Assembly: GCA_964016885.1 (NCBI GenBank)
Contig: OZ024743.1
Coordinates: 281,666,001 to 281,730,000 of the forward strand
Origin: Eledone cirrhosa
Lineage: Eukaryota
DNA: 64,000 nucleotides
Reading direction: 5' to 3'
Shown here one piece after another: positions 39,101-45,100 of this stretch. Every line of letters starts with the position of its first letter. Within the stretch, counting starts at the first letter, position 1. A model generated the notes under the pieces. That model did not search any database and was not told the DNA's origin. It worked only from the letters and a program-made list of their open reading frames with translations. The translations under genes and the position numbers were made by a program.

Positions 39101-42100
39101 TTGGTTTTTTTGCTCATTATTTTTACACATACATGCACAGAGCGAGAGAGAGAGAGAAAGAGAGAGAAAGAGAGAGAAAGAGAGAAAGGGAGAGAGAGAG
39201 AGATAGTCTCTTTACAAAAATTAACAATATATTCATAAGGAAAGACATTTCTACACTCTCAACTAAGAAGTTAGCAGAGCATCACTAAGTTGTATAAAGT
39301 GCTATAACATATATAGCAACCTCTCTGCTATTTCTATTAGGAATATTAAATTCTTCATTGTCTTGTTTTTTCTTTCTTCTTCTGTCTGTCTATATAACAT
39401 CTCTATTTCTTTAACTCTCCTTTTATCTTCAATCTATTTATCACTCGACTCTTAGATTCTTCTCTTTGTTTCACCTTTTCTTCATTAGCTTATAATTGAA
39501 GCACACAGATACACACACATATATCATCATCTTCGTCTAACATCCATCTTCCCCGCTAGTATGGGTTATATATATATATATCCATTTGTTTACCTACCTA
39601 TTTATCTATTCATCTATGAATAATGCATAGATAGTGAATTGGCAAAGTCATCAGGTGGAAAATTCACTGAGTCATTAGAGCGGTATTTGCTCTCTGCATT
39701 CTGAACTCATATCTTGTTAAGGTCAACTTTACCTTTCATCCTTTTGGTCTTGATAAAATAAAGTACCAGTCCAGAATGGTGGTCTGGCAGAATTGTTAGA
39801 CCATTGGACAAGATGCTTTGTGGTATTTTGATCAGCCTTGCATTTTGAGTTCAATTTCTACTGCAACCTACTTGGGTGGTAGACCTAATCTGCCCACTAG
39901 TTTAACACTACTACCTGGCCCTTAGTTGAGTTCACTTTGTTGCAAGCATTAAAATCAGGTCTCAAATATGAGGATATCTTCTTCCTTTTCTCTTTCCTAC
40001 TAATCTCAGAAGTACTGAAAAAAGGTCATCGGCATTGCTTTTCTTTCTTCACAGTTAGAAAAAAGTGAAAAAGGGGTATAGAAAAGAGATGTATATGTAG
40101 CTCTCTACCCATCTCAATGCCTATGTACTTAATCTCATATACAACCACCATCACCCCCACCACCACCACATTTTGCTTTGTTCATTGCTCTTTCATCAGA
40201 TATGAAAATCATCAAGGATGACTATTGCATGTGTGCATCTGGTTTAGAATAGGTACATTATATTCCTGCCACTCATTAGAGGTGACTAAAAGTGTTGGCA
40301 CCAGGAAGGACATCTGGCTGTAAAACATTGCCTAACAAAGAACCCCATGATAAATATGAAGCCTGCCATGGGGTTCACAATGTCAGGAAATATTACCTTA
40401 AAATGCTTGTTTTGTCATTGTGTATTGCATGTATATGCACTGAAATCACTAAAAATAGGACTGATTAACATTTTGGTTGTAGATGTTTTAAAAAAAAAAA
40501 ATCAAAATTATTTTTTTTTACTTGTTAAAAATACAATTTTCAAGATAATGCTTTGAGTCGAGTCTATGCTTTCAATCTCTTATTTACAAAGTTACACACC
40601 AAAATAAAACCACATTAGCAAGACATTGTTTCAAAAGTACAAAAATGCACTATGATTGCATTGTATAAAAAAATTAAGTCTTTACTTTAGTCCAATACTG
40701 CAAATCTCACAATCTGGCCACCAGTAAAGATACTATAAACATTTGAATTAATAAACTCGTTTGTAGTCATTTTATGCTAAATCGTTACAGGTTGTTAAAA
40801 GTTAATGGCAGCCAAAAACGTGAAACATGTATATGCTAAGGTTCTCATAACTGACCATTAGTTTGCACCTGAAAAATTCTCCACCAAAATGAAAATCTAG
40901 GCAAATTATTTTTGTGCAAGGCCAGCAGTCGACTGCGTATGCCAGTCTCCCCTCTCCAAACCGCCAATCTTGCCCAAGGGAAAGGCAAAGAATATACAGC
41001 TTGGCATCATTATAGTTGCAACGTATTTTCCCCCAGCTGAGTAAACTGCAGAAAGGAGAAATAAAGTGTCCACTGTTTGGTCCAGGAATCAAACTCATGA
41101 CCTTATGATTGTGAGTTAAACAATCTAAGCACTAAGCTATGCACCTTCTATATGTATGATCTTTTATACTATAGGAGAATTGTTGCTATAGCTATTTAAC
41201 CCCAGGTCAAATAAAATTGAGTAGACCTATGATCAAAGGCATTCAAGCTGTCACCATCCTATCTTTTGAGAGGGATGTAGAACTACTATAAACCTTGAAT
41301 AAGTCATGCTATCAGGCAGTTGAGATCAACCCTTTAGATATCAAACCACTTGAAACTGCCCCTGGTACTGTGATACAAAATTACTTGTTTTAAAGTGTTA
41401 GGTGGATTGGCAGTATCGGTAGAGCGTTGAACAACATGCTTTGCAGCATAGAGTTACGGCCCTTTACTGTTTGAGTTCAAATCCTGCCGAGGTTAACTTT
41501 GCCTTTCATCCTTATGGGGTCAATAAAATAAAGTACCAGTAATGCACTGGGTAATTGCTGGCCTTGTGCCAAAAGTAGAAACAAATATTTATCTGAAACC
41601 TTCCATCACAATTTTATGTAAGAGCTTTTGTTAAGTTATGTTCCAAACACCACCTTAATATATATACAAATACTCATATATATACATATACAAATACTCA
41701 TATATATATACAAATATTCACATATATATACATATACAAATACTCACATATATATATACATATATATATACATATACAAATACTCACATATATATACATA
41801 TATATACAAATACTCACATATATATATACATATACAAATACTCACATATATATATATACATATACAAATACTCACATATATATATATACATATATATATA
41901 CATATACAAATACTCACATATATACATATATATACAAATACTCACACATATATATATATATATATATATACAAATACTCACACATATATATATATATATA
42001 TATATATATATATATATATATATATATATATATATATAATGTAGGAGGTGAGTTTTATTGTAGTACAATAAAGCAATGCAGATATCGGATAAGAAGCACT

Positions 42101-45100
42101 CTACAGTTTGTAGGACTGGAGTATACATAATATAAGATCAAAAGATGGTTAAAGGAGTTCCATGTATTTTATTATGCGCATTTCAAAAACAAACATCATC
42201 ATGCAATAATATTTGTGTTTTCATCAGATAAAACAGGAGAACATGATATGAAGGCTAAAAAACACTTGTGGATAGTGCAGTTTTAAATCAACATATGAAA
42301 AGTGGTTTTAGATTGATGTGTCTACAAACTTAAAAGAACCAACACAGCTCTCTCAGAACTCATATGGTCCTTGAAAGACAAAAACATTAAATATACCATC
42401 TTTTGGAAGAAGGTTTCTTCTGCATCCTCATACTTGAACAGCTCTCTATCTAAAATCTGTAATCTCTGCCTAAATGAAAAATTTACCATTATCTCTAACC
42501 TAGATTCTATAATAAATAGACGTACAGATTTGTTTTCTATCTGCCTGCATAGGACTTTTCACAAAGTATACAGTTAATATTCAATTCTTTATCAATTTAG
42601 AATCTTTTCTCAAAGGCACATATACATACACCTCTTTAAAATATACCCATCTTCCTACCTTACTTCAAAGGGCATTATACACTCTATAATACTTGTTTAC
42701 TCATTACCCTCTTTCTATCTTCACCTTGTAAAATCCTTCATAACATATACATTTGTTTTTTTGACGTTAGAATATTCATCCGCAATTATTATTATTTTTT
42801 CTCTCTATCATAAAACTTTTTAATCTCAATTTCATCCTTAATTTATTATTTTTTTCTCCCCATCAACGAACTCATTCTTAATACATATTAACTCTTTATT
42901 CGCACATATCAATTCCTTCAATATACAAACTTTAACTTCACATTATTTTTCTCAAATCCTTCTACACACAAACCTTAATAATTTTTTCTCTTCGTTAATT
43001 TTGAAATTGCCACAATACTTATCAACATACACTTTTTTTGACGTTAGAATATTCATCCACAATTATTATTTTTTCTCTCTATCTTCATACATAAATTCCC
43101 TTCGTTAATTTTCAAATTCTTTTAATTTATACATTATCTTCCAATGGTTCTCAACCTCTCTATGTAAAACAATATATCTCTTCTCAGTTATAAAAACTAT
43201 CTCTTTCTCTCTATCACCCATCTCTCCCTCTCCACCTTCACTCTCATCTCCTCCCCCTTTTTTTCACCCCCCCCCCTAAATAAAATATTTTTTCCTCATA
43301 CATATCTTCCCTTCGTTAATTTTCAAATTCTTTTAATTTATACATTATCTTCCAACGGTTTTCAACCTCTCTATGTAAAACAATATATCTTCTCTCAGTT
43401 ATAAAAACTATCTCTTTCTCTCTATCACCCATCTCTCCCTCTCATCTCCTCCCCTTTTTCATCCTTTCCACCCCCCCCACCTCTCTAAATAAAATATTTT
43501 TCCCCATATCACACATCAATCTAAAACCACTTTTCATATGTTGATTTAAAACTGCACTATCCACAAGTGTTTTTTAGCCTTCATATCATGTTCTCCTGTT
43601 TTATCTGATGAAAACACAAATATTATTGCATGATGATGTTTGTTTTTGAAATGCGCATAATAAAATACATGGAACTCCTTTAACCATCTTTTGATCTTTA
43701 TTATATATATATATATATATATATATATATATATATATATATATATATATATATATATATATATATATATATATATATATATATATATATATATATATAT
43801 ATATATATATATATATAGAGGCACATGGCTTAGTGGTTAGAGCATTGGCCTTGCAATTGAAAGAGGTTGTGAGTTCAATTCTCAGACCGGGTTATGTGTT
43901 GACAAGACACTTTATTTCACATTGCTCCAGTTTACTCAGCTGTAGAAATGAGATGATAGGGACTGGGGTCCATATCATTCCACTGCAAAGTGGTCGTGCA
44001 GGTGCCACGGCAAAAAAGCACCCAGCACTCACTGTAAATGGGGTTGGTGTTAGAAAGGGCATCCAGCTGTAGAAATCAAGCCAGAATCAGTTCTCGTCCC
44101 ACCCTTGCAAGCGGACGTAAAATGAAATGAAAAAAAAAATGATATATACATATACAAATACTCACACATATATATATATATATATATATACATATACTCA
44201 CACATATATATATATATATATATATATATATATATACAAATACTCACACATATATATACATATATATATATATATATATATCATCATCATTTCATTTTAC
44301 GTCCGCTTTTTCCTTGTTTGCAAGGGTGGGACGGGAACCGATTCTGGCTTGATTTCTACAGCTGGATGCCCTTCCTAACACAAACCCCATTTACAGCGAG
44401 TGCTGGGTGCTTTTTTGCCGTGGCACCTCCACGACCACTTTGCAGTGGAATGATAGGGACCCCAGTCCCTATCATCTCATTTCTACAGCTGAGTAAACTG
44501 GAGCAATGTGAAATAAAGTGTCTTGCTCAAGGAAACAACACATCACCCGGTCTGAGAATTGAACTCACAACCTTTCGATTGCAAGGCCAATGCTCTAACC
44601 ACTAAGCCATGTGCCTCCATATATATATATATATATATATATATATATATATATATATATATATATATATATATATATATATATATATATATATATATAT
44701 ATATATATATATATATACAAATACTCACACATATATATATATATATATATATATATACATATATATATATATATACATATATACATATATATACATATAT
44801 ACACATATATATACATATATATACATATATACATATATATACATATATATATATATATACATATATATACATATATATATATATATACATATATATATAT
44901 ATATACATATATATATATACATATATATATATATATACATATATATATATATATATATACAAATACTCACACATATATATATATATATATACATATATAT
45001 ATATACATATATATATATATATGTGAGTATTTGTGTATGAATATATATATATACATATATATATATATACACAAATACTCACATATATATACATATATAT

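What the first reader, a model, noticed from the sequence alone, without database searches (positions are those of the whole stretch)
42040..43702. Penelope-like relic puts a complete hammerhead ribozyme core on both strands of an A2M intron
Seen: a 188-bp inverted repeat (42134-42321 / 43511-43698) brackets a decayed GIY-YIG C-terminus. Each arm has an intact type I hammerhead core: stem I, CUGAUGA, long stem II, GAAA, palindromic UGCGCA, UA. Established: Penelope-like elements carry minimal hammerheads with palindromic stem III that cleave as dimers, and they often insert with an inverted pLTR. Inference: the inversion places one ribozyme in the sense strand of the host pre-mRNA together with its own perfect antisense, which is transcribed ~1.4 kb earlier. 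The intron could therefore self-cleave or silence the ribozyme by fold-back. The CxxCLxEK endonuclease pattern and the (TA)n target recall the 'Hydra'-type group (from memory, unverified).
Basis: partly seen in the sequence, partly recalled or inferred. Interest (0 to 1): 0.75.

Follow-up and report, generated by a model that had tools for sequence, protein, structure and literature searches.

The report
Young Penelope insertion with mirrored hammerheads
This is one recent, shortened copy of a very abundant Penelope-type jumping gene sitting in an intron of an alpha-2-macroglobulin-like gene; its two mirror-image ends each carry a predicted self-cutting RNA motif, a known layout repeated thousands of times in this genome, and in the host transcript the motif is predicted to be zipped up by its own mirror copy and so likely silent.

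Summary
There is a perfect 188-bp inverted repeat with a type I hammerhead core in each arm, inside a 9,010-nt intron of a minus-strand A2M-like gene. It is not a decayed relic. It is a young, 5'-truncated copy (about 99% identical outside indels) of a Hydra-clade Penelope-like family with intact 800-aa ORFs elsewhere and 13,935 exact ribozyme copies; 52 of the first 100 listed lie in the same tail-out inverted pairs. The layout is published for PLEs. Self-cleavage of the intron is unlikely: the palindromic stem III needs a second sense copy, and folding locks the whole arm into a 188-bp duplex. Rfam finds no hammerhead and covariation is not significant. The family record is more informative than the locus. 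Inverted pairs nearly always join one short (A) end with one tail-bearing (B) end. About 2,050 insertions stop at one base 124 nt upstream of the cut site, often behind an extra G. This likely means both DNA ends prime on capped, uncleaved sense RNA. The scan already noted similar fold-backs in this genome and the cap run-off in other genomes.

The parts
41658..42039 (.). Left (TA)n-rich microsatellite flank (target sequence)
42040..42133 (-). 94-nt tail of the element (segment between priming ends A and B), present on the inverted arm only; B end joins (TA)n at about 42040
   Evidence: matches the segment between pLTR and 5'UTR in full-length copies; end typing
42134..42321 (-). Inverted 5'-truncated pLTR arm (sense in the host pre-mRNA)
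42167..42233 (-). Type I hammerhead motif on the host sense strand; predicted cut after 42173
   Evidence: activity untested
42323..42577 (+). Last 84 codons plus stop of the RT-GIY-YIG ORF (Hydra CxxC..E..N..CxH end), one in-frame 9-nt deletion; 42322 is one extra base at the inversion junction
42578..43510 (+). About 930-nt pyrimidine-rich 3'UTR with internal direct repeats
43511..43698 (+). Terminal pLTR arm (antisense in the host pre-mRNA, transcribed first); ends at site A against (TA)n
43536..43536 (+). Family-wide 5' stop point, likely the capped transcription start (mirror position 42296)
   Evidence: control; inference
43599..43665 (+). Type I hammerhead motif on the plus strand; predicted cut after 43659
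   Evidence: activity untested
43702..43817 (.). Right (TA)58 flank
37279..46288 (-). Host intron (9,010 nt, GT-AG) of an alpha-2-macroglobulin-like gene; element 2,586 nt from the donor and 4,761 nt from the acceptor

Best explanation
The locus is a young, 5'-truncated insertion of a very abundant Hydra-clade Penelope-like retrotransposon whose ribozyme-bearing end is present twice in mirror image, likely because both cut ends of the (TA)n target primed copying of the same uncut element RNA, and in the host intron the ribozyme is predicted to be locked in a 188-bp duplex and so likely silent. Shown: family, youth, architecture, intron position, and the one-A/one-B rule for inverted pairs. Inferred mechanism: the element's GIY-YIG domain cuts both strands of a TA repeat. 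One 3' end primes at site A (about 40-50 nt past the ribozyme cut site) and the other at site B (94 nt further on). Both cDNAs run through the intact hammerhead, stop (here after 1,376 and 282 nt; very often at the capped RNA start), and are joined head-to-head. Because the arms point outwards, a transcript crossing such an insertion in either direction meets the antisense arm first. The ribozyme is therefore a passenger, neutralised by geometry and by its need for a dimer partner, not a host-selected switch.
For: Family: 150 scored of 48,257 candidates are 97-100% identical to the peptide. 8 of 20 fetched loci, chosen for long frames, have 820-821-aa open frames. The body differs from its best relative by 12 substitutions and 19 gap positions in 1,392 columns. 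Structure searches give RT/TERT for the whole model and GIY-YIG nucleases for the C-terminal model (I-TevI Z 9.2, rmsd 2.5, 89 aligned). Copy number: 13,935 exact matches, control 0. Among the first 100, neighbours within 6 kb are 26 tail-out pairs and 0 tail-in pairs. Dual priming: 24 of 26 pairs examined have one A and one B end (this locus plus 25 of those 26 pairs; 2 are B+B), as do 18 of 20 mini fold-backs (2 unclassified). The tail-less arm reaches further upstream in 12 of the 24, the tailed arm in 4, equal in 8 (read by eye), so in 12 cases, this locus included, neither arm can be a copy of the other. Arms share the 7-site haplotype in 35 of 43 pairs (shuffle mean 17.9, max 25). Uncut capped template: 2,053 loci have both arms stopping at about 43536. 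G precedes that base at 2,939 sites (control 106) against A at 1,273 (control 212), where the template has C. At 43511 the same test gives 13 vs 20. 5' ends are not enriched at the cut site (318 vs 767 in a control window; 1 of 22 true truncations exactly at 43660). Silencing: 188 of 188 arm pairs in the MFE, mean probability 0.998, duplex -315 kcal/mol against -9.9 for the monomer hairpin, and full pairing in 5 of 5 nascent-length snapshots. Agrees with Poseidon in vitro: two RT start sites bound the tail, both strands are cut and extended, unprocessed RNA is the substrate (PMC11167929).
Against: No RNA from this organism could be examined, so splicing, cleavage, editing and the start site are unmeasured. 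Folding is equilibrium modelling; proteins or fast local folding of stem II could give a transient window. Catalytic activity is untested: Rfam has no hit; covariation is not above shuffles (74 of 500 shuffles reach the paired fraction; 1 compensatory pair); stem II closes with A-U. Shared haplotypes could also come from gene conversion between arms or one dominant source copy; 8 of 43 pairs differ (some are alignment gaps or neighbouring insertions). The stop at 43536 sits on a 6-nt palindrome, which explains 23 of 50 listed junctions by microhomology alone, and 7 of 50 single-base inserts are ambiguous (hand count). The two truncation windows are not perfectly matched and both include indel copies. 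This locus's own left arm ends 25 nt upstream of the hot spot, so it was copied from a 3' pLTR with read-through into a tail, not from the RNA's front.
Confidence: 0.8

Rival explanations
1. The sense hammerhead cleaves the A2M intron co-transcriptionally (by trans-dimerising with another element RNA, or helped by element protein) and lowers or alters A2M splicing.
For: The core is intact. A modelled active dimer (-27.9 kcal/mol) beats two monomers (-19.8). There are about 14,000 copies to supply partners. The Poseidon ribozyme cleaves when element protein is added. An intronic ribozyme affects CPEB3 (PMC10274809, search listing only).
Against: The antisense arm is complete before the sense arm is made and pairs with it in every snapshot. 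There is one sense copy per strand in the window. Single minimal PLE hammerheads were inactive and dimers weak. The family's own cDNAs pass through the uncut site.
Confidence: 0.07
2. The ribozyme is silent but the insertion still acts on the host, as a 188-bp perfect double-stranded RNA (A-to-I editing or small-RNA substrate) or through internal promoters in both arms firing outwards from 42296 and 43536.
For: Perfect duplex predicted. Both arms include the likely start site and everything downstream of it. Drosophila Penelope has an internal pLTR promoter (PMC2377424 passages). Heavy A-to-I editing in cephalopods is recalled, not from a call.
Against: No RNA data. The element is 2.6 and 4.8 kb from the splice sites. 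A second inverted repeat lies directly beside it, so dsRNA here is not special.
Confidence: 0.25
3. The inverted arm arose by self-priming fold-back, possibly on an antisense template, as proposed for rotifer Penelopes, not by two target-primed events.
For: Proposed in PMC3846280 (passages) from palindromic junctions. 23 of 50 listed hot-spot junctions are perfect palindromes. The arms share haplotypes.
Against: Here and in 12 of 24 pairs each arm holds sequence the other lacks. An extra G at the sense 5' end, on both arms in at least 2 of 50 listed junctions, points to a capped sense RNA. Many junctions have no palindrome.
Confidence: 0.12
4. The ribozyme cuts the element transcript and the cut or circularised RNA is the main template, as proposed by Cervera and De la Pena.
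For: Hypothesis in PMC4209133. Partial tandems exist (L038, L042). 1 of 38 ORF-bearing 5' ends listed starts exactly at the cut site (L153).
Against: No excess of 5' ends at the cut site, while thousands stop 124 nt upstream behind an extra G. A circle has no end to run off. A minor circular route for full-length tandems is not excluded.
Confidence: 0.1
5. The host has kept this insertion as a regulatory module for A2M.
For: It lies in a gene with an intact reading frame across this intron.
Against: The arms are identical and the body is about 99% like active relatives, so it is too young to show retention, and the same design occurs at thousands of places.
Confidence: 0.02

Closest known systems
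Hydra clade of EN+ Penelope-like elements, incl. Hydra-1_Obim and Penelope-13_HM (Craig et al. 2021, PMC8557442; seen: passages, section 11, supplement searches and supplement parts 2, 58, 59)
   Same: Single RT plus C-terminal GIY-YIG ORF, DKT, CxCx5C linker, CxxC and CxH around E and N, (TA)n target, type I hammerhead with palindromic stem III near the 3' end. Penelope-13_HM is listed with the hammerhead on both strands through a 5' inverted copy.
   Different: A different family from Hydra-1_Obim (different N-terminus and hammerhead, compared by eye only). RWT for RWK. About 70-aa N/S/T-rich insert before the linker. About 930-nt 3'UTR. Stem II of 15 bp against about 3-7 bp in the listed Hydra hammerheads. 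94-nt tail against 30-40 nt. About 14,000 copies.
[quoted passage not shown]
   Same: Intact core, weak palindromic helix III needing a dimer, long helix II. The paper already reports dual motifs 100-700 bp apart on opposite strands.
   Different: A-U instead of the usual G10.1-C11.1 closing pair and a much longer stem II. Family ends argue against cut or circular RNA as the main template.
Poseidon element of Anolis, PAc (Frangieh et al. 2024, PMC11167929; seen: parts 1-2 of 4 and passages)
   Same: Two internal RT start sites that bound the tail, AT-rich target cut on both strands, ribozyme cleavage not needed for insertion.
   Different: Other clade. In the parts read, no one-A/one-B pairing of inverted arms and no cap run-off products are described. 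Its start sites lie inside the ORF; here both lie in non-coding sequence upstream of the ATG.
Inverted pLTR plus optional tail in Adineta Penelopes (Arkhipova et al. 2013, PMC3846280; seen: passages)
   Same: Head-to-head inverted pLTRs, tail on one arm, Inr-like motif in the pLTR, Asn-rich ORF inserts.
   Different: They explain the inversion by self-priming on an antisense template; the data here favour two primings on capped sense RNA.
Non-LTR retrozymes (Li et al. 2026, bioRxiv 10.64898/2026.07.22.740005; seen: part 1 of 5 and passages; supplements not seen)
   Same: ORF-less pLTR-derived units with type I hammerheads; reported as depleted from introns in Xenopus.
   Different: Retrozymes are head-to-tail tandems able to dimerise in cis; this locus and the 2,053 minis are head-to-head and self-antisense.

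Membership tests
EN+ Penelope-like element | Single ORF with telomerase-like RT | tested here: met
   800-aa ORF with YRDD motif in full-length sister copies; the model matches TERT and other RTs, E about 1e-5. This locus itself lacks the RT.
EN+ Penelope-like element | C-terminal GIY-YIG endonuclease | tested here: met
   Domain model pLDDT 78.5; top structural matches are I-TevI (Z 9.2, rmsd 2.5, 89 aligned), T4 EndoII (7.7) and UvrC (6.1). Foldseek alone was not significant and Pfam gave nothing.
EN+ Penelope-like element | pLTR from partial tandems, inverted 5'-truncated copy, tail at one end | tested here: met
Hydra clade | DKT in place of DKG | tested here: met
   DKT present in all 8 full-length ORFs printed; definition
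Hydra clade | RWK motif near the N-terminus | tested here: inconclusive
   RWT at the aligned position; RW kept, K changed
Hydra clade | CxCx5C linker | tested here: met
   three cysteines invariant in 9 of 9 aligned proteins
Hydra clade | CxxC and CxH flanking the catalytic E and N, in place of the CCHH finger | tested here: met
   C105, C108, E111, N124, C133, H135 invariant in 9 of 9; same layout as the Hydra rows of Fig. S7
Hydra clade | Insertion into (TA)n | tested here: met
   both flanks here and most ends printed
Hydra clade | Placement inside the Hydra clade on an RT tree | not tested
   the published reference proteins were seen only as cut text in the supplement; compared by eye
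Type I hammerhead ribozyme | Conserved core CUGAnGA, GAAA, UH with three helices in type I order | tested here: met
   the common family variants in stem II keep pairing (98.4% of cells paired)
Type I hammerhead ribozyme | Covariance-model match or significant covariation | tested here: inconclusive
   no Rfam hit at E<=10; covariation not above shuffles in 68 distinct, very similar copies
Type I hammerhead ribozyme | Self-cleavage | not testable with these tools
   needs in vitro assay
Non-LTR retrozyme | ORF-less head-to-tail tandem units, each with a hammerhead | tested here: not met
   the arms are inverted and enclose an ORF end

The most novel reading that the evidence does not exclude
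This family's thousands of insertions record the unsolved Penelope integration step: both cut target strands prime on one capped, uncleaved sense RNA, one at site A and one at site B, so every two-armed insertion is born as a hairpin that silences its own ribozyme in either transcription direction. That would let a ribozyme-bearing element flood introns at little cost, and the roughly 2,000 mini fold-backs, whose tailed arm keeps start site, ribozyme and both priming sites, could seed new minis as non-autonomous elements.
Probability: 0.45. Interest if true: 0.6.

Novelty: new member of a known kind. Interest (0 to 1): 0.36.

Why it matters
The locus itself is ordinary and probably inert for the host gene. 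The value lies in the family. It is young, very abundant and has intact ORFs, and its ends discriminate between three published ideas on how Penelope-like elements copy themselves: circular ribozyme-cut RNA, antisense self-priming, and internal priming on unprocessed RNA. It favours the third and adds a testable rule (one A end, one B end, run-off at the cap). It also predicts thousands of perfect dsRNA hairpins in an octopus-type transcriptome, and a long-stem-II hammerhead that Rfam did not find here.

Tried and rejected
Rfam: no hammerhead family at E<=10 in 10 kb or in the 141-nt motif. Pfam: no hit for the peptide, the full ORF, the EN domain or 2 homologues. A DNA search of the own genome with the arm returned nothing because common words are skipped; patterns were used instead. 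No RNA holder was listed for this organism. Two possible-RNA contig sets of another organism had no contig on the element, which shows nothing. Covariation test negative. The idea that cut RNA leaves a 5' hot spot at 43660 was rejected. The idea that the extra base at this locus's junction (42322) is a cap G from a second start at 43511 was rejected: 13 vs 20 sites. The idea that the 2,053 minis descend from one MITE-like founder is disfavoured: the same junction occurs on several haplotypes and inserted bases vary. Cryptic poly(A) hexamers at 42173 and 42059 were noted but are common in this AT-rich sequence (5 per strand). Literature searches for a published dual-priming model or an octopus Hydra study beyond Craig 2021 found none; the library lacks most subscription journals, and the retrozyme preprint's supplements were not seen.
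Full report
Observation. The inverted repeat is exact: 42134-42321 and 43511-43698, 188 nt, 100% complementary, between (TA)n tracts. Each arm has a type I hammerhead layout with a 6-bp stem I, CUGAUGA, a 15-pair stem II, GAA, an 8-nt palindrome and an AUA cut triplet. Predicted cuts are after 43659 (+) and 42173 (-). 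A descriptor built on this motif found these 2 sites only, and 0 in 100 shuffles. Rfam found no hammerhead. In 68 distinct family copies stem II stays 98.4% paired and the frequent variants keep pairing, but covariation is not above shuffles. The motif is therefore identified by core, position and family context, not by statistics or activity.

Host gene. One exon matches octopod proteins named alpha-2-macroglobulin-like or murinoglobulin-like by their source (Pfam A2M domains). Fifteen exon matches run down the minus strand. The element sits in a 9,010-nt GT-AG intron (46288-37279) whose flanking exons join in frame. On the host strand the right arm is antisense and is transcribed first; the left arm carries the sense ribozyme.

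The element. The peptide at 42323-42574 matches a full-length copy at 84 of 87 columns with one 3-residue gap. All 150 copies scored, of 48,257 candidates, are 97-100% identical. Eight of 20 fetched loci, picked for long frames, hold 820-821-aa open frames. The model of that protein matches reverse transcriptases including TERT, and its C-terminal domain matches GIY-YIG nucleases. It has DKT, CxCx5C, CxxC and CxH as defined for the Hydra clade, with RWT for RWK (PMC8557442 section 11). By eye it differs from Hydra-1_Obim. The full unit is pLTR, 94-nt tail, short 5'UTR, ORF, about 930-nt 3'UTR, pLTR. This locus is the last 1,376 nt of that unit plus an inverted 282-nt piece (pLTR and tail). It is young: the arms are identical and the body has 12 substitutions against its best relative.

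How common the layout is. A 34-nt piece of the ribozyme occurs exactly 13,935 times, control 0. Among the first 100 listed places, 26 neighbour pairs within 6 kb point outwards like this locus and none point inwards. Opposite-strand hammerhead pairs are already reported for PLEs (PMC4209133) and for a Hydra member. Only 182 places carry the tail-to-5'UTR junction of ORF-bearing copies.

How it likely formed. Element ends fall at two sites: A, just after the pLTR, and B, 94 nt further. Of 26 pairs examined (this locus and 25 of the 26 listed pairs; one rearranged pair was left out), 24 have one A and one B end and 2 have B twice. Eighteen of 20 mini fold-backs are A+B, with 2 unclassified. The A arm reaches further upstream in 12 of the 24, the B arm in 4, and 8 are equal (read by eye). 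In those 12, this locus included, each arm has sequence the other lacks, so one is not a fold-back copy of the other. Arms of one insertion share a 7-site haplotype in 35 of 43 pairs (shuffle mean 17.9, maximum 25), which fits one template RNA but also gene conversion. Poseidon in vitro cuts and extends both target strands, starts at two internal sites that bound the tail, and uses unprocessed RNA (PMC11167929). Two primings on one RNA are therefore the simplest reading (inference).

The template was not cut. At 2,053 loci both arms stop at about the base equivalent to 43536, 124 nt before the cut site (also the main joint in DNA contigs). Of the 50 loci listed, 23 join through a shared palindrome, 6 overlap by two bases, 9 carry an unambiguous extra G before that base, 7 carry an ambiguous single base and 5 are other (hand count). 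Genome-wide, G precedes that base at 2,939 sites and A at 1,273 (controls 106 and 212), though the template has C; 25 nt upstream the same test gives 13 and 20. An untemplated 5' G is associated with copying of an mRNA cap in L1 (PMC9341517 passage), and Drosophila Penelope starts from an internal pLTR promoter (PMC2377424 passages). I infer a capped start at 43536. By contrast 5' ends are not enriched at the cut site: 318 matches against 767 in a control window, and 1 of 22 true truncations starts exactly there (8 of 30 loci were indels). This argues against ribozyme-cut or circular RNA as the main template (PMC4209133) and against antisense self-priming (PMC3846280 passages), without excluding minor routes.

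What it does in the intron. Folding the host-strand transcript pairs all 188 arm positions (mean probability 0.998; duplex -315 kcal/mol), and does so at each of 5 nascent lengths. Even without the antisense arm, monomer stem III has probability about 0 and stem I about 0.03. A dimer is favourable on paper, but the window holds one sense copy per strand. Published single PLE hammerheads were inactive or protein-dependent. Silence is the best prediction. A dsRNA or promoter effect is the more plausible way for this insertion to touch the host. None of this was measured, as no RNA of this organism was available.

Novelty. The locus is a new member of a known kind: a new, highly amplified Hydra family with a long stem II, a long tail and a long 3'UTR. 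The family-level evidence for paired A/B priming on capped, uncut RNA bears on an open mechanism question; four literature searches found no such model in the held library. I reached the fold-back and start-site readings before consulting the scan's notes, which report similar fold-backs in this genome and cap run-off in other genomes. Those notes are unchecked and are not counted as support.

Noticed in passing
window 43819-44605: Directly beside the element lie two copies of a tRNA-headed SINE-like repeat in opposite orientation (arms 43903-44110 and 44318-44525, 97% complementary; weak tRNA matches at 43826-43885 and 44552-44609), a second predicted dsRNA in the same intron.
   Followed up: no
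G000, 2,053 loci, e.g. L064, L087, L191-L210: About 430-bp ORF-less palindromic minis of this family, both arms stopping at the same base, one arm tailed; several haplotypes and junction types. Whether they are transcribed and re-copied is unknown.
   Followed up: partly
L033:3733-6132: The ORF has an about 70-aa Asn/Ser/Thr-rich insert before the CxCx5C linker, absent from the 8 aligned homologues, reminiscent of Asn-rich inserts in rotifer Penelopes.
   Followed up: no
window 42040-42133: The tail holds two small hairpins, one of 8 bp ending about 14 nt before end B; earlier scan notes propose a tail hairpin as an enzyme recognition mark.
   Followed up: partly
window 43659-43664 and mirror 42173; 42059: An AAUAAA hexamer overlaps the ribozyme cut site, and another lies about 19 nt before end B on the host sense strand, outside the duplex; such hexamers are frequent here.
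   Followed up: no
window 46796-49306 and 62068-63827 (minus strand): Long open frames of a LINE-like element (RT and endonuclease-like text, labels recalled, not scanned) in two near-identical copies; the first lies in the A2M intron upstream of the one studied.
   Followed up: no
window 4440-5328 and 10417-10820: Fragments that read like Tc1/mariner transposases in other introns of the A2M-like gene (label recalled, not scanned).
   Followed up: no
L031, L041, L049: Copies of the family inserted into the (TA)n flank of other copies, giving nested clusters.
   Followed up: no
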